Below are positions 4,700-60,911 of a stretch of DNA of 64,000 bases, in pieces. The DNA comes from Candidatus Spechtbacterales bacterium. Lineage in GTDB: Bacteria > Patescibacteriota > Minisyncoccia > Spechtbacterales > 2-12-FULL-38-22. The notes under the pieces are model-generated. The model was not told the origin of the DNA and did no database searches. It worked only from the letters and a program-made list of their open reading frames with translations. The DNA is taken from the NCBI GenBank assembly GCA_040902285.1, contig JBBDXP010000007.1, positions 1,042-65,041 of the forward strand. The letters are read 5' to 3'. The number at the start of each line of letters is the position of its first letter. The first letter of the stretch is position 1. The position numbers and the translations under genes are program-made.

Positions 4700-4766
4700 A
4701 AGTGAGTAGTAAGTAGTTGGTAGTAAGTAGTAAAAATAAAAAACACCCTTTTGGGGTTTATTCTTC

Positions 4767-12743: not shown

Positions 12744-12830
12744 GCCCGGGTGGTGGAACTGGCAGACACGCTGGACTCAAAATCCAGTGGTAGAAATACC
12801 GTGGAGGTTCAACTCCTCTCCCGGGCACCA
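12744..12830 (+). tRNA. tRNA-Leu (anticodon CAA), type II with long variable arm, CCA encoded
   Basis: The acceptor stem GCCCGGG pairs with CCCGGGC. The anticodon loop is CTCAAAA and the variable arm is long. The T-arm is GGTTCAACTCC and the sequence ends ACCA. Confidence 0.85.
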
Positions 12831-19223: not shown

Positions 19224-21683
19224 TTAGATAACCAGATTAACGACTTTGTTTTTGACCGCTATAGTTTTTTTAGGTTTTTTATCTCCCAAAATTTCCTTTA
19301 TTCTTTCGCTTTCCAAAGCGCTTTTAATTAAACGGCCTTCTTCCGTGTTGTTTTCCACTTCGATTTGAGCCCGTAGTTTTCCATTAATCTGCACGGGCAC
19401 GGTTATAATTTCCTGCTTCGTAATTTTTGCGTCAAACTCAGGCCAGACAGCATCGTGCACGCTTCCTTTTTGGCCTAAGCGTTCCCATAGTTCCTCTGTA
19501 ATATGCGGAGCGAAAGGCGCCAGCAAAACAAGCAGAGTTTCTATATCTTCGGGCGAGTGTTCATTTTCATAAAGCGCGTTCACATATGCCATCATAGCGG
19601 CAATAGCGGTGTTGTAATGCAAGCGTTCAATATCTTCCGTTACTTTTTTTATTGTCTGATGTTTTATCTTTTGTAAATTCTGTTTTGAGTTTGTCTCTTG
19701 CCTGCCTGCCGAAGCCTCTGCGGAGGCAGGTTGCTTGCCTGCCTGCCCCGTACTGGACTTGTCCTGGTACGGGGTTGTTTGTCTCTGAACGAGCCCCCAT
19801 ACTCTTCCTAAAAATCTATGAACTCCGCGTATGCCTTCGTCCTGCCAATCTCCCCCTTCGGCTAAAGGACTTAAAAACATAAGGTATGTGCGAAGAGTAT
19901 CGGCGCCAAATGCTTCAAAAAGCTCATCGGGATTCACAATATTTCCTTTAGATTTGCTTATTTTTGACCCTTCTTTTACCAGAAGGCCATGCGCCCTAAA
20001 TTTCTTAAAGGGCTCTTCGAAATTAAGAAGTTTTTGATCGCGCATAAACATAGTTATAAAGCGTGCATACATTAAATGAAGCACGGCATGTTCCTGGCCT
20101 CCAATATACATATCCACCGGCAGCCATCTTTCGGTTATTTTTTTATCCCATGCTATATTTTTTTCTCCGGAACTGGGATAGCGCAAAAAATACCATGAAG
20201 AATCCAGAAAAGTGTCCGAAACATCCGTTTCTCTTTTTGCCCTGCCCGCGCACTTGGGGCATTTTACATTTACAAATTCTTCAACGGCGGCAAGCGGAGA
20301 TTTATCGGTGCCTGTCGGCTGGAAATTTTCCACATAAGGCAGCAGCACGGGCAAATCCTTTTCGGCTACGGGTACCGTGCCGCAATTGTCGCAATATATT
20401 ATGGGTATTGGAGGCCCCCAATAGCGTTGGCGCGATATGAGCCAATCACGCAAATGATAGTTTACCTGAGGAATACCGCCTACGCTTTTTCCAATTTTTT
20501 CCCTAGCTTCTGATGAGGATATGCCATTGAATTTTTCCGAACCAACCAGATGGCCTTCTCCTTCATACGCTTTTTCCAAGACCGGGCATATTTTTTCCGG
20601 ATAATTCTGGCATATTACCTGTTTTGAAGGCAAGCCGTATTTTTTCGCAAATTCAAAATCTCTCTGGTCATGCGCGGGAACCGCCATTACAGCACCTGTT
20701 CCATATTCAGCTACAACATAATCCGATATCCAAACCGGTATTTCTTCTTTATTGGCGGGATTTATGGCGCTGATACCCTTCAGCTCAATCCCCGTTTTTT
20801 CATTGTTCTTGGTCTGTTTTTTGCTTTCGGATTTGTTTATATATGTTTCAATCTCTTTTTTATTGGTGATTGGTAATTGGGAAATTAGTTCATGTTTTGG
20901 GGACAACACAATATATGTCGCTCCGAACAAAGTATCCGCTCGTGTTGTGAAGATTTCGATTGAAAATTGAGAATTGAAAATTGGAAATTTTATACGGTAC
21001 CCCGTGCTTTTGCCTATCCAGTTGCGTTGCGCGATCTTTGTGTGTTCGGACCAGTCAATATTTTTAAGATTTTCCAATAATCTGTCCGCATAATCGGTTA
21101 TTTTTAAAAACCATTGGTTTAAATTTTTGCTTTCAACAACCGAATCGCATCTTTCACATCTTCCCGATATCACCTGCTCGTTAGCGAGAACGGTTTTACA
21201 ACTCGGGCACCACTGAACGGGAGCTTCTTTTTTGTACGCAAGACCTGCTTCGTAGAATTTTAAAAAAATCCACTGGGTCCACTTATAATATTCCGGATCA
21301 GTGGTGTTTATTATGTTATCCCAGGAATAGATGTTCCCGATGTATTCCAATTGTCTTCGAAAATTATCCGTACTTTTCTTTATTAGTTCCCTTGGGTGTA
21401 TGCCTTTTTTTAGAGCAAAATTTTCGGAATGAATCCCGAACGCGTCAAATCCTATTGGTTCAAAAACATCGTATCCTTTCTGCCGCATATAGCGTCCGTG
21501 TATATCCGAACCCACAAACGCGTAAAGATTGCCTATATGCAAGCCCTCCGCCGAAGGATAGGGAAACATCATTAGGTTATAATAGGGCTTTTTGTCCCCT
21601 TTTATATCAACCTGCCACCTCGCGTCGCGTATCCATTTTTCCCGCCACTTTTTCTCTATTTTTTGCGGATTATATTGTTCCAT
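19224..21683 (-). CDS. leuS: leucyl-tRNA synthetase carrying an in-frame GC-rich repeat insertion
   Basis: HIGNLYAFVGSDIHGRYMRQKGYDVFEPIGFDAFG is the HIGH region and a KMSKS-like SKSKGN is present. The low-complexity insert STGQAGKQPASAEASAGRQETNSKQ is encoded by the repeat at 19690-19790. Confidence 0.9.
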   Translation of the reverse strand: MEQYNPQKIEKKWREKWIRDARWQVDIKGDKKPYYNLMMFPYPSAEGLHIGNLYAFVGSDIHGRYMRQKGYDVFEPIGFDAFGIHSENFALKKGIHPRELIKKSTDNFRRQLEYIGNIYSWDNIINTTDPEYYKWTQWIFLKFYEAGLAYKKEAPVQWCPSCKTVLANEQVISGRCERCDSVVESKNLNQWFLKITDYADRLLENLKNIDWSEHTKIAQRNWIGKSTGYRIKFPIFNSQFSIEIFTTRADTLFGATYIVLSPKHELISQLPITNKKEIETYINKSESKKQTKNNEKTGIELKGISAINPANKEEIPVWISDYVVAEYGTGAVMAVPAHDQRDFEFAKKYGLPSKQVICQNYPEKICPVLEKAYEGEGHLVGSEKFNGISSSEAREKIGKSVGGIPQVNYHLRDWLISRQRYWGPPIPIIYCDNCGTVPVAEKDLPVLLPYVENFQPTGTDKSPLAAVEEFVNVKCPKCAGRAKRETDVSDTFLDSSWYFLRYPSSGEKNIAWDKKITERWLPVDMYIGGQEHAVLHLMYARFITMFMRDQKLLNFEEPFKKFRAHGLLVKEGSKISKSKGNIVNPDELFEAFGADTLRTYLMFLSPLAEGGDWQDEGIRGVHRFLGRVWGLVQRQTTPYQDKSSTGQAGKQPASAEASAGRQETNSKQNLQKIKHQTIKKVTEDIERLHYNTAIAAMMAYVNALYENEHSPEDIETLLVLLAPFAPHITEELWERLGQKGSVHDAVWPEFDAKITKQEIITVPVQINGKLRAQIEVENNTEEGRLIKSALESERIKEILGDKKPKKTIAVKNKVVNLVI
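19690..19790. repeat. GC-rich palindromic CCTGCC/GGCAGG element, copy A (two hairpin units), in frame inside leuS
   Basis: TTTGTCTCTTGCCTGCCTGCCGAAGCCTCTGCGGAGGCAGG + TTGCTTGCCTGCCTGCCCCGTACTGGACTTGTCCTGGTACGGGG + TTGTTTGTCTCTG. It is flanked by a TTTGTCTCT direct repeat. GC is much higher than the surrounding AT-rich coding sequence. Confidence 0.55.
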
Positions 21684-43173: not shown

Positions 43174-44258
43174 TAGTAAAATTTTCTATAAAATGAAAGA
43201 ACTAATACGGACAACCAAAGAGGGAAAAAGAGCAACCATGCCATGTCGGTTGCGCGCAATACCTCGCTAGTTTGTATAACTTGATAGTCCGAGGACAGGG
43301 TGGAATTTATATAAGAAATTATTTCTTCCGATTGCTTATAGTTAAAGTATTGTCCTTCGGTTCCATCTGAAATTCTCGCTAAATTCTCTTCTTCCAATAC
43401 CGAATTGAATACTCCGACATTCGTTAACTTAGCATATTCCCCGGTAAACACTCCGTTATCATCGAACAGGGGGATTTTCCATCCGTTCTCGGATCCTATT
43501 CCTACTGAAATTACCGAGAGGTTGGCCTGGCGAAGCAAACTAATCGCTTCACCAAATCCTTGCGACGGACTCTGGCCGTCAGCAAGAAGTATGACATGTG
43601 ATACATTTGCCAATTCGGGAACCGACATCTTTTTTTTTGCAACCACCGCCAAAGCGTTGGGTAAAGTTGATCCTTCGTGCGATATAATGCCAACATGCAA
43701 GCTGTTTTTGACCGCATCCGTTAAACTTTCATAATCCGAAGTCAAATTAGTCAAAGAAAATGTTAATCCGGAAAATCCGTAAATCTGAAACCTTGCTGTT
43801 CCTGTTTCGTCTATGATTTTCTGAACCAACTGGCGCGCAAGCCCCATCTGGCTTTCTCCATCAGGTGTTGGTCTCGCATCCATACTGCGCGAAACATCCA
43901 CCATGATTATGTAATCTCCCCGAGGAGTTGTTTCAGGAGGACCATATTCTACAATTTGAGGGCCTACTATCAGGGCGCTTAAGCTTCCGAGCAAAATGCC
44001 CCATGTAACTGCCAAAGCAACATATATTTTGAATGATCCCGCTCGCATCTTAAACGCTCTTAGGAAAGAATTATCAGCCCTGCGAGAATAAAAGAATATA
44101 AGCGTTGCAACAATGGGAATAAAGATTAACAGGACAAGAAATTCCGGGCGGGCGAATTCTATCTGCCCGCCCCTTGAAAGAGCTTTAATAACTTCGTTCA
44201 TTGCCTTCATTCCTTCCCGGTTTTTCACCATCCCCGGGATACTGCTCATAAAACTCAT
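43173..44258 (-). CDS. membrane-anchored von Willebrand factor A domain protein (BatB-like)
   Basis: N-terminal TM helices are followed by a vWA MIDAS motif (IIMVDVSRSMDA). Confidence 0.65.
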   Translation of the reverse strand: MSFMSSIPGMVKNREGMKAMNEVIKALSRGGQIEFARPEFLVLLIFIPIVATLIFFYSRRADNSFLRAFKMRAGSFKIYVALAVTWGILLGSLSALIVGPQIVEYGPPETTPRGDYIIMVDVSRSMDARPTPDGESQMGLARQLVQKIIDETGTARFQIYGFSGLTFSLTNLTSDYESLTDAVKNSLHVGIISHEGSTLPNALAVVAKKKMSVPELANVSHVILLADGQSPSQGFGEAISLLRQANLSVISVGIGSENGWKIPLFDDNGVFTGEYAKLTNVGVFNSVLEEENLARISDGTEGQYFNYKQSEEIISYINSTLSSDYQVIQTSEVLRATDMAWLLFFPLWLSVLVLSFYRKFY

Positions 44259-48900: not shown

Positions 48901-50247
48901 CTAAAGATATAATTTACTGAACTCTTCCCTTGCTACCTGCCTGTCATCCCACGGCACAGGCCCCTTAGCGGTCATCATTAAGGGCTCCGCACCCTTTCCG
49001 GTTATAATTACATTATCGCCTTCTTTGGCTTTTTTCAATGCTTCTCTTATTGCCTGTCGCCGATCTAAGATTTTTTCGTAGTTTATTTCTTGTTTCTTGT
49101 CTGCCTGCCGAAGCCCTGTCCGTCCGGCAGGCGGGCTCGGCGCAGATAGGTATCTTGTGTCTTCAGAAAGTCCCGATTCAATATCCTTTAGAATACTTTC
49201 GGGATTTTCTGTGTAGGGATCTTCGTCCGTTAAAATTATTTCATCGCAATGTTCGCTTGCGATTTCTCCAAGCTTGGGTCTTTTCCATTTGTCCCTGCCT
49301 CCGCCTGCGGCTCCCAGAACGCATATAGTTCTTCCACCCTTTTTTTGCCGTAATTGCTCCGATACCGTGTTGTAAACTTTCTCCAAAGCATCGGGTGTAT
49401 GGGCATAATCAACAACAACATTAAATGGCTCGCCTATAACTACTTCAGCTCTGCCCGGCACGCCCGGAAAGCTTGATAATATATCGGCCATTTTATCCAT
49501 GGGTATTCCCTGCGCTCTGCCTGCGCCTATCGCGGCTAAAACATTATACGCGTTAAATTTCCCGAGAATGGGAATTGAAAATTTATTATCCCTTATATAA
49601 AAATTTATGCCCCTGTCCTCCAGTTTTAATTTTTCGGCAAGTATTTCCTCTGTGCCAAGTGAAGCACTGCCGGGATTGAGCGTATATCCAATTTTTTCAA
49701 TAGCCGGAAATTGCAGGAAATAATTGGCATTTTCATCGTCCAAGTTTACCACGGAAGCCCTGTGGCGCAAAGAAAAGAATTTGCCTTTCGCGTTTTTGTA
49801 ATTTTCAAAAGAACCGTGGCTCTCTATATGTTCGGGGGTCAAATTAGTAAATACGGCGGTATCAAATTCAATAAATTTATGTCTGTTTTGCCTAACGCCC
49901 TCGCTTGTAACTTCTATTACCGCGAACTGGCAACCGGCATCCGCCGCCTTGCGCAAAAACAGATGCAGTTTCATCCTTCCCGGCATTGTCATTTTAAGCT
50001 TGTTGGGCCATTCTTCGTTGCCTATTTTAAATCGCAGCGAAGAAATAGAAGCAGTTTTATAACCGGCGTTTTCCAGCAAATAAGAACAAAGATGTGCTAC
50101 GCTTGTTTTGCCGTTAGTGCCAGTGATACCGATAACTTTTATTTCTTTTGAAGGGTGTCCGTAAAGAAAAGCGCCCAAAGCGGGCCATGCGGAATGATAC
50201 GCTTCCAATACTGAAGGTGGGATAAATTTTTTGATTAGTTCTTTCAC
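48901..50247 (-). CDS. murE: UDP-N-acetylmuramoyl-tripeptide ligase MurE, probably L-Lys-adding type, with an in-frame GC-rich repeat insertion
   Basis: GITGTNGKT is the P-loop. TNLTPEHIESHGSFENYKNAK is the Mur central domain. LGAAGGGRDKWKRPKLG...ILTDEDPYTENP occupies the place of the DNPR motif. The C-terminal GKGAE motif is present. The insert LSAPSPPAGRTGLRQADKKQ sits near the C-terminus. Confidence 0.75.
   Translation of the reverse strand: MKELIKKFIPPSVLEAYHSAWPALGAFLYGHPSKEIKVIGITGTNGKTSVAHLCSYLLENAGYKTASISSLRFKIGNEEWPNKLKMTMPGRMKLHLFLRKAADAGCQFAVIEVTSEGVRQNRHKFIEFDTAVFTNLTPEHIESHGSFENYKNAKGKFFSLRHRASVVNLDDENANYFLQFPAIEKIGYTLNPGSASLGTEEILAEKLKLEDRGINFYIRDNKFSIPILGKFNAYNVLAAIGAGRAQGIPMDKMADILSSFPGVPGRAEVVIGEPFNVVVDYAHTPDALEKVYNTVSEQLRQKKGGRTICVLGAAGGGRDKWKRPKLGEIASEHCDEIILTDEDPYTENPESILKDIESGLSEDTRYLSAPSPPAGRTGLRQADKKQEINYEKILDRRQAIREALKKAKEGDNVIITGKGAEPLMMTAKGPVPWDDRQVAREEFSKLYL
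49095..49146. repeat. GC-rich palindromic element, copy B, in frame in murE
   Basis: TCTTGTCTGCCTGCCGAAGCCCTGTCCGTCCGGCAGGCGGGCTCGGCGCAG is near-identical to copy C. Confidence 0.55.
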
Positions 50248-51158
50248 AGGATATTTTTTATTCTATATAAAATATACCAAAAACGGCTAATAGGAAGATC
50301 GAAACTGCCCAAGTATTTTACTTCTTTTCCACCGAAACCTTTTTTAAAACGAGTTAAGCCGGGCCATTTTTTTTCATTAATTCCCCAAAGGTCATAATAC
50401 CCCAGAGATTCTCTTTTTGCATCTCGGATTATTTTCCAGTGCATAAGATAAGGCGCCATATGCTTTCTTAATTTGTAATCGGACGCTCCATGCAAATATG
50501 TGGCTGTGTTTCCGGCAAATACGACTATCGCGGCGGATGCGAGCTTGCCGTCTTTATACGCGATATATAGGCGCGCAATATCCATATCCAAAAGCTTTTT
50601 GTAATAATCTTTTGTATGCGTACTGAATTTATCGCGAAGTGCTGTGTCCAAAATCAACGACCACCACATATTAAAATCGGTCTGTTTATTTTTTGATAAA
50701 ACCGCTTCAACTCCCCGTTTTTGGGCCACGCGCAAATTGTATCTGGTCTTTTGTCCCATTTGCCCAAGAAGCTTTTCTTCGCTTTCTTTAAGATCTAAAA
50801 CTATGGTTTTCTGCGGCTGGAGTTCTTTGCTCGATTTAACAAAACCAAGCCGGCTTAATCCTTGTCTCTTGCCTGCCTGCCGAAGCCCTGCCCGTCCGGC
50901 AGGCGGGCTCGGCGCAGGCAGGTTGTTTGTTGCTTGTTGTTGTACAAGTGGCTCCCACTTAAAAAATATCGCGCCCTCAGCGCGTCCGATATTTTTTATT
51001 TCCTCCAAATATTCAAGCGCGTCGGGATAATTGGAATACAGATAACTTTTTCCCAAAGGAACATCCAGCTTAATCATGTACCCCGCGCCTAAATCAAAAC
51101 TCTTGCGCCCGGTGCTTTCCTGAAATTTTCTCCATTGTGGCAAGTTAAGAAAACTCAT
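50244..51158 (-). CDS. FemAB-family peptidoglycan interpeptide-bridge aminoacyltransferase (putative) with an in-frame GC-rich repeat insertion
   Basis: Length and composition fit FemX/FemAB GNAT-fold transferases. It is adjacent to the Lys-type murE. The insert NNLPAPSPPAGRAGLRQAGKRQ is encoded by repeat copy C. Confidence 0.5.
   Translation of the reverse strand: MSFLNLPQWRKFQESTGRKSFDLGAGYMIKLDVPLGKSYLYSNYPDALEYLEEIKNIGRAEGAIFFKWEPLVQQQATNNLPAPSPPAGRAGLRQAGKRQGLSRLGFVKSSKELQPQKTIVLDLKESEEKLLGQMGQKTRYNLRVAQKRGVEAVLSKNKQTDFNMWWSLILDTALRDKFSTHTKDYYKKLLDMDIARLYIAYKDGKLASAAIVVFAGNTATYLHGASDYKLRKHMAPYLMHWKIIRDAKRESLGYYDLWGINEKKWPGLTRFKKGFGGKEVKYLGSFDLPISRFWYILYRIKNIL
50862..50945. repeat. GC-rich palindromic element, copy C, in frame in the femAB-like gene
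   Basis: CTTGTCTCTTGCCTGCCTGCCGAAGCCCTGCCCGTCCGGCAGGCGGGCTCGGCGCAGGCAGG followed by a TTGTTTGTTGCTTGTTGTTG tail. The arms are inverted repeats (CTGCCTGCCGAAGCCC.../...GGGCTCGGCGCAGGCAG). Confidence 0.55.
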
Positions 51159-59474: not shown

Positions 59475-60911
59475 CTATTTCCTTATATAACTATACCCCG
59501 CCCCCAGCAATATCCAGAACATAAGCCCGCCCTGCTGTATGGTCAGGTAAAAATGGTCAAAAAGCCCTCCAGTGATAATAAACACTGTTGCCGAAATGTA
59601 AAATAATCCCAATATGTCTTTTTGTGCCGAATATTTTTTTAAAAAATATCCAAACATTACCGTTATAAATAAAATAAAAACGATGAGCGCGAGTACTCCC
59701 GATTCGGCCGCCAAAAGCAAAAATATATTGTGTACCGGCTGATACAGGCGGTCGTGCAGACCTGAAAAAACATCGCGCAAATAAAGCGTGTAATTTCCCG
59801 CGCCAACGCCGAAAAAGTTCTGAGATATAACCTGCAGGGAAAGGTTATTAAAAAATAATCTTTCCCTGATGGCCAGGTCGCCACGGGCAAAAGCGGTCAA
59901 AACTCTGCTGTAAACTTCGGGCCAGAAAATTAAGGTGAACAAAAACGCCGCCGAAAACATTGGCGCCAGGGCAAAAAACATTTTTTTCTTTAAATGCCCA
60001 AATTGTCTTGAAAACAAGATCGCAAAAATATAAAAAATTACAACCAGTAAAAATGCAAAAATAACGGCTCTGGAAAAAGTAAGTATCAGTCCTATTCCGA
60101 TTATCACCGTTCCCGTCCATGTAAAAAACAGTTGTTTGCGCACTGGTCCTTTTTTCCAAAAAAACCATGTGAGCAAGAAAAGAAACGAAATCCCCAAAAA
60201 TGCCGCAAGAACATTGGGACTGCTAAATGTTCCATATGCACGCATAAAGCGGGCGCCAAAAGCGACAAATTCGGCAACTTCCTGCCGGCCGGCTACAAGG
60301 TGTGGCTCGCCTAAAAGATAAAAACCCAGAGATTTTTGGAATGCAAACTGGCCAATAGCTAAAATCCCCTGAAAAATTCCGGATAAAGAAAACGCAAGCG
60401 CAATTTTTAAAAACGACACGCGTTTTAGGATATCTGCGGTATAAAAGAACAAAAAAATAAATTCTATAAGTTTTATAAATCGATAAACCGCAACGCCTTT
60501 GTACCCTGCAAATAGTATGGAAATACCAACAAGAATTACAAAAAGAACTAACCAAAATATGGGCCTTTTAAAAATCCTAAATCCAAAATCTGGGTGCCGA
60601 GGATAGTGAGCGAAAAGAAAATTCATTTTCTTTTCCGAGCGACGCAGGCATAAACGCAAGTGCTCAATCCGAAACAAATTCCAATGACCAAGATTAAAAA
60701 TTCCAGTTTTTTTTCTTGTAAACAAGGGCTTTAGTCGTCTGGATATCCAAAAACAAAAAAGCAGCGCAATCAGTATATCCGTTCCATACAAAAAAACGCT
60801 CTGCCACTCGTTAAACCCCTCAACCGCTCCCGCGCCCCACAAAAAAACCCTCGTTTGAAAAGGGATTGAAAAAACAAGCAATAAAAATACAAGTTTTTCT
60901 AATTTCAACAT
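59475..60911 (-). CDS. O-antigen ligase/polymerase-like (Wzy_C) polytopic membrane protein
   Basis: A 478-aa protein with more than 10 TM helices and a large periplasmic loop. Its N-terminal region contains the AAAAGAAAA hairpin repeat (locus 2) in frame. The alternative start MNF at 60626 sits exactly in the hairpin loop. Confidence 0.45.
   Translation of the reverse strand: MLKLEKLVFLLLVFSIPFQTRVFLWGAGAVEGFNEWQSVFLYGTDILIALLFCFWISRRLKPLFTRKKTGIFNLGHWNLFRIEHLRLCLRRSEKKMNFLFAHYPRHPDFGFRIFKRPIFWLVLFVILVGISILFAGYKGVAVYRFIKLIEFIFLFFYTADILKRVSFLKIALAFSLSGIFQGILAIGQFAFQKSLGFYLLGEPHLVAGRQEVAEFVAFGARFMRAYGTFSSPNVLAAFLGISFLFLLTWFFWKKGPVRKQLFFTWTGTVIIGIGLILTFSRAVIFAFLLVVIFYIFAILFSRQFGHLKKKMFFALAPMFSAAFLFTLIFWPEVYSRVLTAFARGDLAIRERLFFNNLSLQVISQNFFGVGAGNYTLYLRDVFSGLHDRLYQPVHNIFLLLAAESGVLALIVFILFITVMFGYFLKKYSAQKDILGLFYISATVFIITGGLFDHFYLTIQQGGLMFWILLGAGYSYIRK
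60591..60650. repeat. AAAAGAAAA hairpin element, locus 2
   Basis: CCGAGGATAGTGAGCGAAAAGAAAA-TTC-ATTTTCTTTTCCGAGCGACGCAGGC is near-identical to locus 1 apart from the loop length. Confidence 0.45.

What the first reader, a model, noticed from the sequence alone, without database searches (positions are those of the whole stretch)
50862..50945. Family of GC-rich palindromic elements inserted IN FRAME into protein-coding genes (RPE-like), copy C in femAB-like gene
Three copies of a CCTGCC/GGCAGG-rich imperfectly palindromic element occur inside ORFs: 19690-19790 in leuS, 49095-49146 in murE and 50862-50945 in the FemAB-like gene. All three host genes are on the minus strand and the element has the same orientation in each. 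It is therefore read in the same frame each time and adds related peptides (LPAPSPPAGRAGLRQAGKRQ, LSAPSPPAGRTGLRQADKKQ, QAGKQPASAEASAGRQ). The ~55-nt core (CTTGTCT(CT)TGCCTGCCGAAGCCCTG(C/T)CCGTCCGGCAGGCGGGCTCGGCGCAG) is almost identical between copies B and C. It can fold into a long hairpin. Its GC content is far above the host coding sequence. This resembles the Rickettsia palindromic elements that colonise ORFs while keeping the frame open. Two of the three hosts are adjacent cell-wall genes (murE, femAB).
Basis: seen in the sequence. Interest (0 to 1): 0.75.

Follow-up and report, generated by a model that had tools for sequence, protein, structure and literature searches.

The report
Nested GC-rich mini-hairpins inserted in genes
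A 51-base, very GC-rich double hairpin has been inserted in frame into a cell-wall enzyme gene of an uncultured Spechtbacteria (CPR) bacterium, and its 30-base and 21-base modules recur almost unchanged in genes and spacers of many unrelated bacterial phyla, which suggests an extremely small, undescribed kind of spreading DNA.

Summary
Three related elements of 73-80% GC sit in frame in leuS, a murE-type ligase gene and a FemAB-type gene of a 42%-GC Candidatus Spechtbacteria genome. Orthologues lack them, and an independent assembly reproduces them base for base.

Copy C is 51 nt (50872-50922). It is a 30-nt hairpin, CCTGCCTGCGCCGAG|GCTTCGGCAGGCAGG, with a 21-nt hairpin, CCCGCCTGCCGGACGGGCAGG, inserted in its loop. 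It lies in a CAA-rich 7-nt repeat tract. It encodes LPAPSPPAGRAGLRQAG, which AlphaFold2 models as the only disordered loop of the protein.

Both modules occur separately in many phyla. They are found in spacers, nested in other palindromes, inside heptamer arrays, and in frame in enolase, ahcY, murB, gltX, priA, leuS and hsdM. Their lengths are multiples of three and all six frames lack stop codons.

The behaviour resembles Rickettsia RPEs, but the elements are not RPEs, tagged REPs or MITEs. The closest analogue is the cyanobacterial small dispersed repeats.

The way they spread is not shown. One lead is that the core palindrome lies next to, or flanks, small mobile GIY-YIG nuclease genes at tRNA-Leu loci.

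The parts
50872..50922 (-). Copy C: 51-nt compound hairpin (30-nt outer module plus nested 21-nt module) in the FemAB-type gene. It encodes (L)PAPSPPAGRAGLRQAG, roughly residues 80-96.
   Evidence: Removing the inner 21 nt leaves exactly CCTGCCTGCGCCGAGGCTTCGGCAGGCAGG, which is identical to copies in L002, L106 and L240-L243. GC is 0.80. The fold is -38.3 kcal/mol, z -4.0. pLDDT is below 50 only at residues 77-92.
50887..50907 (-). Inner 21-nt module of copy C, CCCGCCTGCCGGACGGGCAGG (sense), inserted in the loop of the outer hairpin.
   Evidence: The full 21-mer is present at nearly all of these places.
50923..50941 (-). CAA-rich 7-nt repeat tract upstream (sense) of copy C: CAACAAG CAACAAA CAA.
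   Evidence: After removing the hairpin, period 7 fits best (0.60). The orthologue L111 has (CGACAAG)x4 at the same site.
50858..50871 (-). Continuation of the 7-nt tract downstream (sense) of copy C: CAAGAGA CAAGGAT.
49100..49150 (-). Copy B: the same compound hairpin, more degenerate, in the murE-type ligase gene. It encodes (L)SAPSPPAGRTGLRQAD. The inner module is at 49115-49135 (the CGGACAGG variant).
   Evidence: 4 mismatches to C. Orthologues L109, L110 and L111 lack about 20 residues here.
49086..49099 (-). Heptamer tract (CAAGAAA)n flanking copy B.
   Evidence: TRF reports 49086-49100, period 7, 2.1 copies. After excision, period 7 fits best at 0.63.
19701..19730 (-). Copy A: 30-nt outer-type hairpin CCTGCCTCCGCAGAGGCTTCGGCAGGCAGG in leuS, with 2 mismatches to the canonical form, read as PASAEASAGR.
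   Evidence: phase 0, against phase 2 for B and C.
19734..19774 (-). Second part of A: the unrelated hairpin CCCCGTACCAGGACAAGTCCAGTACGGGG followed (sense) by a lone GGCAGGCAGGCAAG arm.
   Evidence: Hairpin X has no other copy in 1.7 Mb of fetched loci.
19689..19698 (-). 10-nt direct repeat AGAGACAAAC (sense) flanking insertion A. The second copy is at 19777-19786.
   Evidence: Read from the sequence.
50244..51158 (-). Host gene: FemAB/FemX-type aminoacyltransferase, 304 aa.
   Evidence: Pfam PF02388 at 7.9e-37. 100% match to a Candidatus Spechtbacteria MAG protein.
48901..50247 (-). Host gene: MurE-type Mur ligase, 448 aa.
   Evidence: Pfam Mur_ligase_M and Mur_ligase_C.
19224..21683 (-). Host gene: leucyl-tRNA synthetase, 819 aa.
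   Evidence: Pfam. PDB 1h3n at 4e-218. The insert lies in the variable linker before the anticodon-binding domain.

Best explanation
Copy C is selfish or neutral repeat DNA, not an ancestral part of the enzyme.

Anatomy. It is two nested members of a superfamily of tiny GC-rich palindromic modules built on the stem (CCTG)2...(CAGG)2. A 30-nt hairpin was copied into a CAA-rich heptamer tract in the hypervariable linker of the FemX-type enzyme. A 21-nt hairpin sits exactly in its loop. The pair either arrived as a unit or the 21-mer was added later.

Why it is tolerated. Both modules have lengths that are multiples of three, and no frame on either strand contains a stop codon. An insertion therefore cannot break a reading frame. 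The copies that persist lie in permissive loops and are mostly read in the one cysteine-free sense frame. Here the product is a 17-residue Pro/Gly/Arg-rich disordered surface loop.

Spread. The modules are copied within genomes and carried between phyla. They land preferentially at the centres of existing palindromes and inside 7-nt tandem arrays.

Mechanism (inferred, not shown). A nuclease-made break at a hairpin or cruciform tip is repaired using another copy as template. The best candidate nuclease and inter-phylum vehicle is a 77-82-aa stand-alone GIY-YIG gene that is found either between the palindrome's two arms or beside it at tRNA-Leu loci.

What is shown: insertion status, modular anatomy, wide distribution, nesting, disordered-loop location, and physical linkage to GIY-YIG. 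What is inferred: that the insert is translated, that spread is copy-and-insert, and any role of the nuclease.
For: Insertion status:
- The 35 other FemAB orthologues aligned, chosen partly for unusual length, lack the peptide, and the site is hypervariable.
- MurE orthologues lack copy B.
- At the codon level, orthologue L111 has (CGACAAG)x4 at the site of copy C.

Anatomy:
- C minus the 21-mer equals the canonical 30-mer exactly.

Distribution:
- About 35 of 108 genome hits carry the full 30-mer. They come from Patescibacteria, Verrucomicrobiota, Nitrospira, Omnitrophica, Kiritimatiellae, Ignavibacteria, Gamma- and Deltaproteobacteria and Bacteroidota MAGs.
- A 21-base pattern covering the inner module (its last 20 bases plus the next G) matches exactly in at least 120 metagenome contigs; the full 21-mer is present at nearly all of them.
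- The 20-nt perfect palindrome occurs at 18 further sites in 16 of the fetched loci, against about 3e-6 expected.

In-frame hosts:
- Enolase carries an exact 10-residue gap relative to PDB 1iyx.
- Other hosts are ahcY, murB, gltX, priA, leuS and hsdM.

Nesting and arrays:
- Excising the 21-mer restores a stem of at least 6 bp in 15% of cases against 0.4% of controls. It restores in-phase arrays in 5 cases, all of period 7.

Frames and orientation:
- All six frames are open. 9 of 12 sense copies use the Cys-free frame (p = 0.004). Sense versus antisense is 12:1 (p = 0.003).

Structure:
- Mean pLDDT is 91.7, and only residues 77-92 fall below 50.

Assembly:
- The sequence is identical in the Logan assembly of SRR27977660.

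GIY-YIG link:
- In L029 hsdM the ORF lies between the arms CCTGCCTGCGCCGCG...CGCGCGGCAGGCAGG and is absent from orthologue L046.
- 5 of 6 contexts retrieved by protein homology alone carry the palindrome within 60 nt of the ORF (p about 7e-6).
Against: - No transposition event or closely related empty/filled pair (above 95% ANI) was seen. The nearest orthologues are only 65% identical.
- No GIY-YIG or transposase gene lies in the window or its 10-kb flanks, and the window's tRNA-Leu locus is empty.
- Most 21-mer insertion sites (about 80%) are neither palindrome centres nor arrays.
- The collection scans were exact-pattern searches, so variation, copy numbers and flank preferences are biased. 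The CAAG tail and the following G were forced by my own patterns.
- All full-length genome hits are from MAGs, none from cultured isolates.
- Translation of the insert is assumed, not shown.
- Homing by a GIY-YIG nuclease does not by itself explain how ORF-less hairpins reach non-homologous sites.
Confidence: 0.7

Rival explanations
1. The same kind of element, but moved as single-stranded hairpin DNA by a Y1/HUH transposase supplied in trans (REP/REPIN-RAYT or IS200/IS605-like), inserting into the lagging-strand template.
For: The modules are 20-40-nt imperfect palindromes like REPs. REPs inside ORFs are documented (PMC3733652). There is an orientation bias relative to genes of 12:1. All three window copies lie on the sense strand of genes that appear to be co-oriented with replication, judging from the GC skew.
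Against: There is no GTAG or CGTC tag. No RAYT or TnpA was seen in the Pfam listings for the window's flanks. No REPIN-type inverted doublets are present. Identical modules across phyla are not a known REP property, since REPs are specific to a lineage and its RAYT. The orientation bias can equally come from selection against cysteine-coding frames.
Confidence: 0.12
2. Not mobile. The segments arose in place by replication slippage or palindrome growth in low-complexity linkers, and similar sequences arose repeatedly.
For: The copies sit in 7-nt tandem tracts and between direct repeats. The stem is itself a tetranucleotide repeat, (CCTG)2/(CAGG)2.
Against: An idiosyncratic imperfect 21-mer (one C.A mismatch and one G.T wobble) recurs exactly in at least 120 unrelated contigs. 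The canonical 30-mer is identical between phyla. Boundaries are precise, with an exact 10-residue gap in enolase. GC is 0.80 inside a 0.40 gene.
Confidence: 0.06
3. A selected functional structure: an mRNA hairpin that pauses translation or stabilises the message, or a DNA/protein-binding site or peptide motif, kept for the host's benefit.
For: The folds are very stable, with a UUCG-containing loop on the sense strand. Some intergenic copies are followed by T-runs like intrinsic terminators (L134, L209, L231). There is a sense-orientation bias.
Against: The hosts are unrelated and the sites are variable loops. Close orthologues function without the insert. Copy B is decaying, with 4 changes, 3 of them in stem arms. 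There is no Rfam match. The peptide is predicted to be disordered.
Confidence: 0.07
4. Assembly or sequencing artefact. The module sizes 21 and 33 and the ~55-nt compound resemble common assembler k-mer sizes.
For: The 21-nt size matches a default k. All full-length genome hits come from MAGs.
Against: The modules occur in records whose contig names point to several different assembly workflows (k141-style, NODE-style, RIFCSP scaffolds, Logan contigs and MFD bins); the assemblers themselves are my reading of those names. They are always in frame at variable loops. Copies diverge (B against C). The sequence must come from reads, not from graph logic.
Confidence: 0.03
5. The segment is removed before the mature protein is made, for example as a mini-intron, by ribosomal bypass as with the 'byps' of yeast mitochondria, or by protein splicing.
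For: Because the modules are multiples of 3 and stop-free, in-frame status does not prove translation. GC-rich mobile byps are a precedent (my own knowledge: Lang et al. 2014).
Against: No take-off/landing codon pairs, ribozyme or intein motifs are present. There is no Rfam hit. The bias towards the Cys-free frame implies that the peptide is exposed to selection, which means it is translated.
Confidence: 0.02

Closest known systems
Rickettsia palindromic elements (RPE; Ogata et al. 2000, as summarised in PMC3733652)
   Same: Palindromic repeats inserted in frame into ORFs of functional, often essential, proteins in a small genome. They are tolerated as extra peptide segments.
   Different: RPEs are roughly 100-150 bp (my own knowledge), carry a CGTC end tag (PMC3733652) and are confined to Rickettsia. 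The present modules are 21 and 30 nt, have no tag and no sequence resemblance, are far more GC-rich than the host, nest in one another and are shared across phyla.
Small dispersed repeats of Nostoc and other cyanobacteria (SDR; Elhai et al. 2008, Genome Res 18:1484). The paper is not held, so details are from memory plus PMC4390886.
   Same: Units of 21-27 nt, some of them hairpins, are treated as mobile despite their size. They insert precisely into other repeats (SDR5 between nucleotides 3 and 4 of the HIP1 palindrome; PMC4390886). Their genomes are also rich in heptamer tandem repeats.
   Different: SDRs are cyanobacterial. Their sequences could not be compared here. In-frame colonisation of housekeeping genes and cross-phylum identity are not features I know to have been reported for SDRs.
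REP / REPIN elements with RAYT transposases (PMC3116915, PMC3733652)
   Same: 20-40-nt GC-rich imperfect palindromes in high copy number, occasionally inside ORFs.
   Different: No GTAG or CGTC tag, no doublet organisation and no RAYT were seen. REP families are lineage-specific and mainly lie outside genes.
GC clusters and 'byps' of yeast mitochondrial genomes (my own knowledge), and the palindromic microsatellite-like repeats of Fusarium mitochondrial genomes (PMC7218506)
   Same: Short GC-rich palindromic mobile clusters that invade AT-rich compact genomes, including coding regions, next to homing-endonuclease-rich mobile DNA.
   Different: They are organellar, their sequences are unrelated, and byps are skipped by the ribosome rather than translated.
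PARCEL palindromic amphipathic repeat coding elements (PMC2996958)
   Same: Palindromic coding repeats that are open on both strands and horizontally distributed among distant microbes.
   Different: PARCELs are longer tandem coding repeats that build surface proteins. They are not single 21-30-nt hairpins inserted into enzymes.
Homing-endonuclease genes of the GIY-YIG class (PMC3943268)
   Same: A small GIY-YIG ORF shows presence/absence at a fixed site: tRNA-Leu, or between the palindrome arms in hsdM.
   Different: There is no intron or intein. The ORF is only the ~78-aa catalytic domain, with no DNA-binding domain. The link to ORF-less hairpins is an association only.

Membership tests
Rickettsia palindromic elements (RPE) | In-frame insertion into ORFs without disrupting them | tested here: met
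Rickettsia palindromic elements (RPE) | Element length of roughly 100-150 bp with an RPE consensus | tested here: not met
   The modules are 21 and 30 nt, and 51 nt when compounded.
Rickettsia palindromic elements (RPE) | CGTC tetranucleotide tag at one end (PMC3733652) | tested here: not met
   The ends are CCTGCC... and ...GGCAGG.
Rickettsia palindromic elements (RPE) | Host restricted to Rickettsia | tested here: not met
   The host is Candidatus Spechtbacteria, and the modules occur in many phyla.
REP / REPIN-RAYT | 20-40-nt imperfect GC-rich palindrome | tested here: met
REP / REPIN-RAYT | GTAG (or CGTC) unpaired tag | tested here: not met
   Sequence.
REP / REPIN-RAYT | Cognate RAYT (Y1 transposase) gene flanked by the repeats | tested here: inconclusive
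   None appears in the Pfam listings for window coordinates of about 9-32 kb and 42-64 kb. The rest of the genome was not available.
REP / REPIN-RAYT | Mostly extragenic, often as inverted doublets | tested here: not met
   All 3 window copies are inside genes and none forms an inverted doublet.
Small dispersed repeats (SDR, Elhai 2008) | Unit of 21-27 nt dispersed in many copies | tested here: met
   A 21-base pattern covering the inner module (its last 20 bases plus the next G) matches in at least 120 contigs. The 30-mer is slightly larger.
Small dispersed repeats (SDR, Elhai 2008) | Precise insertion into other repeats or palindromes | tested here: met
   (insertion at palindrome centres and in the loop of the 30-mer).
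Small dispersed repeats (SDR, Elhai 2008) | Sequence identity to SDR1-8, and a cyanobacterial host | not testable with these tools
   The paper and its sequences are not held. The hosts here are not cyanobacteria.
MITE | 70-300 bp with terminal inverted repeats and a fixed-length target-site duplication | tested here: not met
   The element is too short. No constant duplication is seen. Flanking direct repeats vary from 7 to 21 nt.
Intrinsic terminator | GC hairpin followed by a U-run at the end of a gene | tested here: not met
   The window copies lie inside ORFs and are followed by CAAG.., not by T-runs. Some intergenic copies elsewhere do have T-runs.
Known RNA families (Rfam 15) | Match to a covariance model | tested here: not met
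   (only tmRNA and tRNA in the window).

The most novel reading that the evidence does not exclude
The (CCTG)2...(CAGG)2 modules are the smallest known horizontally spreading mobile DNA, at 20-30 nt. They form a pan-bacterial population of 'coding-compatible' hairpins, with lengths that are multiples of three and no stop codons. These colonise essential genes of compact genomes. They are the empty sites or miniature derivatives of a cross-phylum selfish element that encodes a ~78-aa structure-specific GIY-YIG nuclease and resides at tRNA-Leu genes. Repeated break-and-repair at these hairpins would also generate the unexplained 7-nt tandem arrays seen in CPR, Bacteroidota and cyanobacteria.
Probability: 0.3. 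Interest if true: 0.85.

Novelty: new variant of a known kind. Interest (0 to 1): 0.68.

Why it matters
Three consequences would follow if this holds.

1. DNA units of only 21-30 nt would be shown to spread between phyla and settle inside essential enzymes such as enolase, tRNA synthetases and Mur and Fem enzymes. That would make them a steady source of new surface loops and of gene-length variation in the most reduced bacterial genomes.

2. It gives annotators and structural modellers a concrete reason for the odd Pro/Gly/Arg/Gln-rich inserts seen in proteins from CPR and other metagenome-derived genomes.

3. The link to a small GIY-YIG gene at tRNA-Leu loci gives a testable candidate for the enzyme behind very small dispersed repeats. 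That question has been open since the cyanobacterial small dispersed repeats and heptamer repeats were described.

Tried and rejected
- Rfam, at gathering and E-value thresholds: nothing at the elements.
- Peptide searches failed. An 18-aa query was too short. A 40-aa concatenate found no shared words, which cost one search. A 33-aa window peptide against 1.84 billion representatives gave 0 hits.
- Plasmid collection: only weak matches, probably chance, in high-GC replicons.
- Viral contigs: the modules are present but rare, in 7 and 4 stretches, so phages are not an obvious main reservoir.
- Literature searches by sequence, peptide and concept found no description of these modules. The Elhai 2008 paper is not held.
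- I first took the CAAG tail, and a G after the 21-mer, for target-site preferences. Both were forced by my own search patterns, and copies found without that constraint do not show them.
- The enolase alignment shows that the true outer module is 30 nt, not 33-34 nt.
- The coincidence of 21, 33 and 55 with assembler k-mer sizes was considered and rejected, because the contig names point to several different assembly workflows.
- Hairpin X of copy A has no other copy in 1.7 Mb of fetched loci.
- The window's own genome was not among the species representatives scanned, so no genome-wide copy count was possible.
Full report
**Observation**

The window is a 42%-GC stretch of a Candidatus Spechtbacteria (CPR/Patescibacteria) genome. 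The FemAB-type protein matches an NCBI MAG protein at 100%. They lie inside long minus-strand ORFs identified by Pfam as leucyl-tRNA synthetase, a MurE-type Mur ligase and a FemAB-family transferase.

The shared motif TGCCTGCCGAAGCC occurs three times against 0.34 expected, and none of 100 shuffles reached three. A 26-mer is shared by all three copies, and B and C match at 85% over 81 nt. The sense strands fold at -24.6 to -38.9 kcal/mol, with z-scores of -3.0 to -4.0. No other copy of the family lies in the 64 kb.

**Are they insertions?**

Thirty-five FemAB orthologues, chosen partly for unusual length, lack the peptide. The site, between the EP motif and the LxxxGF helix, is hypervariable and holds other odd inserts in other lineages. 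Synteny (ruvA-femAB-murE-moxR) let me read the orthologous murE genes, and these lack about 20 residues where copy B sits.

At the codon level, orthologue L111 has a pure heptamer repeat, (CGACAAG)x4, at the site of copy C. The window has CAACAAG CAACAAA CAA-[hairpin]-CAAGAGA CAAGGAT. After the hairpin is removed, a 7-nt period fits best for both B and C.

The leuS insert lies in the variable linker before the anticodon-binding domain.

An AlphaFold2 model of the FemAB-type protein is confident overall (mean pLDDT 91.7). Only residues 77-92 fall below 50. These residues cover the first 13 residues of the insert plus three before it, between strand 63-68 and helix 94-103.

A Logan assembly of run SRR27977660 contains A, B and C base for base. 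This speaks against an assembly artefact, although reads were not inspected.

**Anatomy**

Copy C is 51 nt, at 50872-50922, with GC of 0.80 in a gene of 0.40. Removing the 21-nt string CCCGCCTGCCGGACGGGCAGG leaves exactly CCTGCCTGCGCCGAGGCTTCGGCAGGCAGG. Copy C is therefore a 30-nt hairpin with a 21-nt hairpin inserted in its loop.

Copy B (49100-49150) has the same compound structure with four substitutions. One of these is the CGGACAGG variant of the inner module.

Copy A contains the 30-mer with two mismatches (19701-19730). It also has an unrelated hairpin followed by a lone GGCAGGCAGGCAAG arm, and the whole is bracketed by a 10-nt direct repeat, AGAGACAAAC.

B and C are read as LPAP/LSAP...LRQAG (phase 2). 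A's 30-mer is read as PASAEASAGR (phase 0).

**Distribution**

A species-representative genome scan with the 3' arm plus CAAG returned 108 loci. About 35 of them carry the full 30-mer. They come from MAGs of Kaiser-, Pacei-, Doudna- and Saccharibacteria, Verrucomicrobiota, Nitrospira, Omnitrophica, Kiritimatiellae, Ignavibacteria, Gamma- and Deltaproteobacteria and Bacteroidota. Local GC ranges from 0.24 to 0.62.

A metagenome scan used a 21-base pattern covering the inner module (its last 20 bases plus the next G). Although these loci were selected for other patterns, they also contain the perfect 20-nt palindrome CCTGCCTGCCGGCAGGCAGG at 18 sites, against about 3e-6 expected. One of these sites is intergenic in the Spechtbacteria relative L111.

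The modules are rare in viral contigs and essentially absent from plasmids of cultured bacteria. All full-length genome hits are from MAGs, which is a caveat.

**Behaviour**

In long ORFs the 30-mer sits in unrelated conserved genes:
- hsdM (Verrucomicrobiota and Nitrospira)
- S-adenosylhomocysteine hydrolase
- enolase
- the N-terminus of leuS
- murB, gltX and priA

Against a solved enolase, the insert is an exact 10-residue gap: ELRDGD[LPSLKLRQAG]KKRYGGKGV. This sets the module length at 30 nt and shows that the CAAG 'tail' there is native sequence.

Both modules are multiples of three, and all six frames are free of stop codons. Twelve of 13 in-ORF copies are in the sense orientation (p = 0.003). 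Nine of those 12 use the only cysteine-free sense frame (p = 0.004). This frame bias argues that the peptide is exposed to selection, which means it is translated.

Excising the 21-mer restores a stem of at least 6 bp in 15% of 117 sites, against 0.4% of controls. Often this regenerates the 20-nt palindrome at its exact centre. In five cases excision restores perfectly phased tandem arrays, all of period 7. Other sites show flanking direct repeats of 7-21 nt.

The same compound of 30-mer and 21-mer occurs once more, in an unrelated contig, L158.

**Ascertainment limits**

The scans were exact-pattern searches. The apparent CAAG tail and the G after the 21-mer were imposed by my patterns, and unconstrained copies lack them. 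Copy numbers and variation therefore cannot be estimated from these data.

**A lead on mechanism**

In the Verrucomicrobiota hsdM (L029), a small GIY-YIG ORF lies in frame between the arms CCTGCCTGCGCCGCG...CGCGCGGCAGGCAGG. The Nitrospira orthologue lacks the whole block.

The Spechtbacteria relative L111 has a 78-aa GIY-YIG gene about 28 nt from the 20-nt palindrome. Homologues of this protein are 62-81% identical across Bacteroidota, Ignavibacteriota, Balneola, Saprospiraceae, Absconditabacterales and Pacebacteria, and many lie on short contigs. Both points indicate a horizontally mobile gene.

I fetched six further contexts by protein homology alone. All six abut a tRNA-Leu gene. Five carry the palindrome (in L262 a variant form) within 60 nt of the ORF (p about 7e-6). 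The clearest cases (L246, L261, L265 and its copies L266/L268, and L111 itself) place it inside a duplicated partial tRNA-Leu copy, exactly in the D-loop: GGCGGAA^[palindrome]^TTGGTAGAC. L272 has only a GGCGGAA fragment next to it, and L262 has it in the T-arm of a duplicated 3' half.

Other GIY-YIG copies are flanked by a different inverted repeat (L183).

The window itself has no GIY-YIG gene, and its tRNA-Leu(CAA) locus next to parA is empty.

This establishes physical linkage and a plausible vehicle between phyla. It does not show that the nuclease moves ORF-less hairpins.

**Interpretation**

The best-supported reading is that copy C is a neutral or selfish compound of two tiny palindromic repeat modules. 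It has been copied into a permissive repeat-rich linker and is translated as a disordered loop. It belongs to a superfamily that spreads within and between bacterial genomes.

The mechanism is inferred. I favour nuclease-initiated breakage at hairpin or cruciform tips followed by templated repair, with the small GIY-YIG nuclease as the candidate enzyme. REP/RAYT-like single-strand transposition is the main alternative.

Origin by slippage in place, a selected RNA or peptide function, an assembly artefact and removal before the mature protein are each disfavoured by specific results given under the rival explanations.

**Comparison with known families**

The behaviour matches Rickettsia RPEs and intragenic REPs (PMC3733652). 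Membership of those families fails on length, end tags, organisation and host.

The closest analogue in size and in precise nesting is the cyanobacterial small dispersed repeats. Elhai 2008 is not held, but PMC4390886 records the precise insertion of SDR5 into the HIP1 palindrome. Heptamer tandem repeats are known in cyanobacteria, Beggiatoaceae and other bacteria (PMC4679880 and PMC4692102).

I found no paper describing these modules, their occurrence across phyla, their in-frame colonisation of housekeeping genes in CPR bacteria, or the link between GIY-YIG, tRNA-Leu and the palindrome.

I rate the finding as a new variant of a known kind, with interest 0.68.

Noticed in passing
L111:14341-14713; L246, L261, L262, L265/266/268, L272/274 (GIY-YIG loci): Small GIY-YIG ORFs of 77-82 aa, 62-81% identical across distant phyla, always abut a tRNA-Leu gene. 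They are accompanied by a duplicated partial tRNA-Leu copy that carries the 20-nt palindrome CCTGCCTGCCGGCAGGCAGG precisely in its D-loop, or in L262 in its T-arm. This looks like an undescribed selfish element that targets tRNA-Leu.
   Followed up: partly
L029 (Verrucomicrobiota hsdM ORF, about aa 490-590) compared with L046: A GIY-YIG domain lies in frame inside a type I methylase gene. It is bracketed by the two arms of the 30-nt hairpin (LPAPRPG...RARQAGG) and is absent from the Nitrospira orthologue. The same gene also carries a simple 30-nt hairpin insert further upstream.
   Followed up: partly
window 12744-12830: A tRNA-Leu(CAA) gene next to parA/parB/relA has no GIY-YIG gene and no palindrome. 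In the CPR loci L261 and L266/267 the equivalent parB-adjacent tRNA-Leu site holds the GIY-YIG element.
   Followed up: yes
window 20959-20989, 20862-20880, 4701-4733, 60571-60590: Further 7-nt tandem arrays occur in the window. ATTGAAA x4.4 and ATTGGTA x2.7 lie inside leuS (the first encoding ..FPIFNSQFSIEI..), and AGTAAGT x4.7 lies elsewhere. Heptamer arrays inside coding sequence appear to be a general feature of this genome.
   Followed up: no
L111:5100-6476 (murE orthologue, aa ~200-230): At a different site of murE there is a different GC-rich hairpin, CCTGCCTACCGGCTCGCCTCGCTCCCTCGGCGGAGCGGGCAGGCAGG. It is flanked by (AATTTCA)x3 and a TTCAAA-rich tract and is read as PAYRLASLPRRSGQAG. 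The architecture is the same but the loop content differs.
   Followed up: no
Alignment A1, columns 130-175 and 300-345: The FemAB linker is a hot spot for inserts. P0002 has an AT-rich tandem tract (IPISKSQFPNKSQILIIKQ), P0011 has PSHEATAGTANKEQ, P0036 has LRQAQGK, and P0006 has a 40-residue insert. P0009 and P0021 carry inserts at a second site.
   Followed up: no
L116:6728-8670: Three tandem paralogous genes each carry the 21-nt module at the same N-terminal position (..HESHGN PPAGRTGR ENWKSYFWEF..). The module was therefore duplicated together with its host gene.
   Followed up: no
L126, L146, L179, L184 (GC 0.60-0.63 metagenome contigs): The 21-nt module is inserted inside another well-populated repeat (..GTCATCCCGAGCGAGGC.. 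/ ..GATCTGCTGTTC..). The composite TTCCGCCcgAGGCG-[21-mer]-GATCCGCCTttGGCGGAA recurs in more than 10 contigs.
   Followed up: no
window 8-16 kb: GC skew changes sign and gene orientation converges around 10.9-13 kb (cumulative skew maximum), next to parA/parB and the tRNA-Leu gene. All three elements lie in the region where genes and negative skew run together.
   Followed up: no
window 44146-44172 and L109:16942-16968: A GC-rich hairpin, GGGCGGGC...GCCCGCCC, is conserved at the same position between VWA-domain genes in two Spechtbacteria genomes. It is unrelated to the family studied.
   Followed up: no
window 50244-50247: The stop codon of the FemAB-type gene and the GTG start of the murE-type gene overlap by 4 nt. 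L109 has the same arrangement, which suggests translational coupling of the two cell-wall genes.
   Followed up: no
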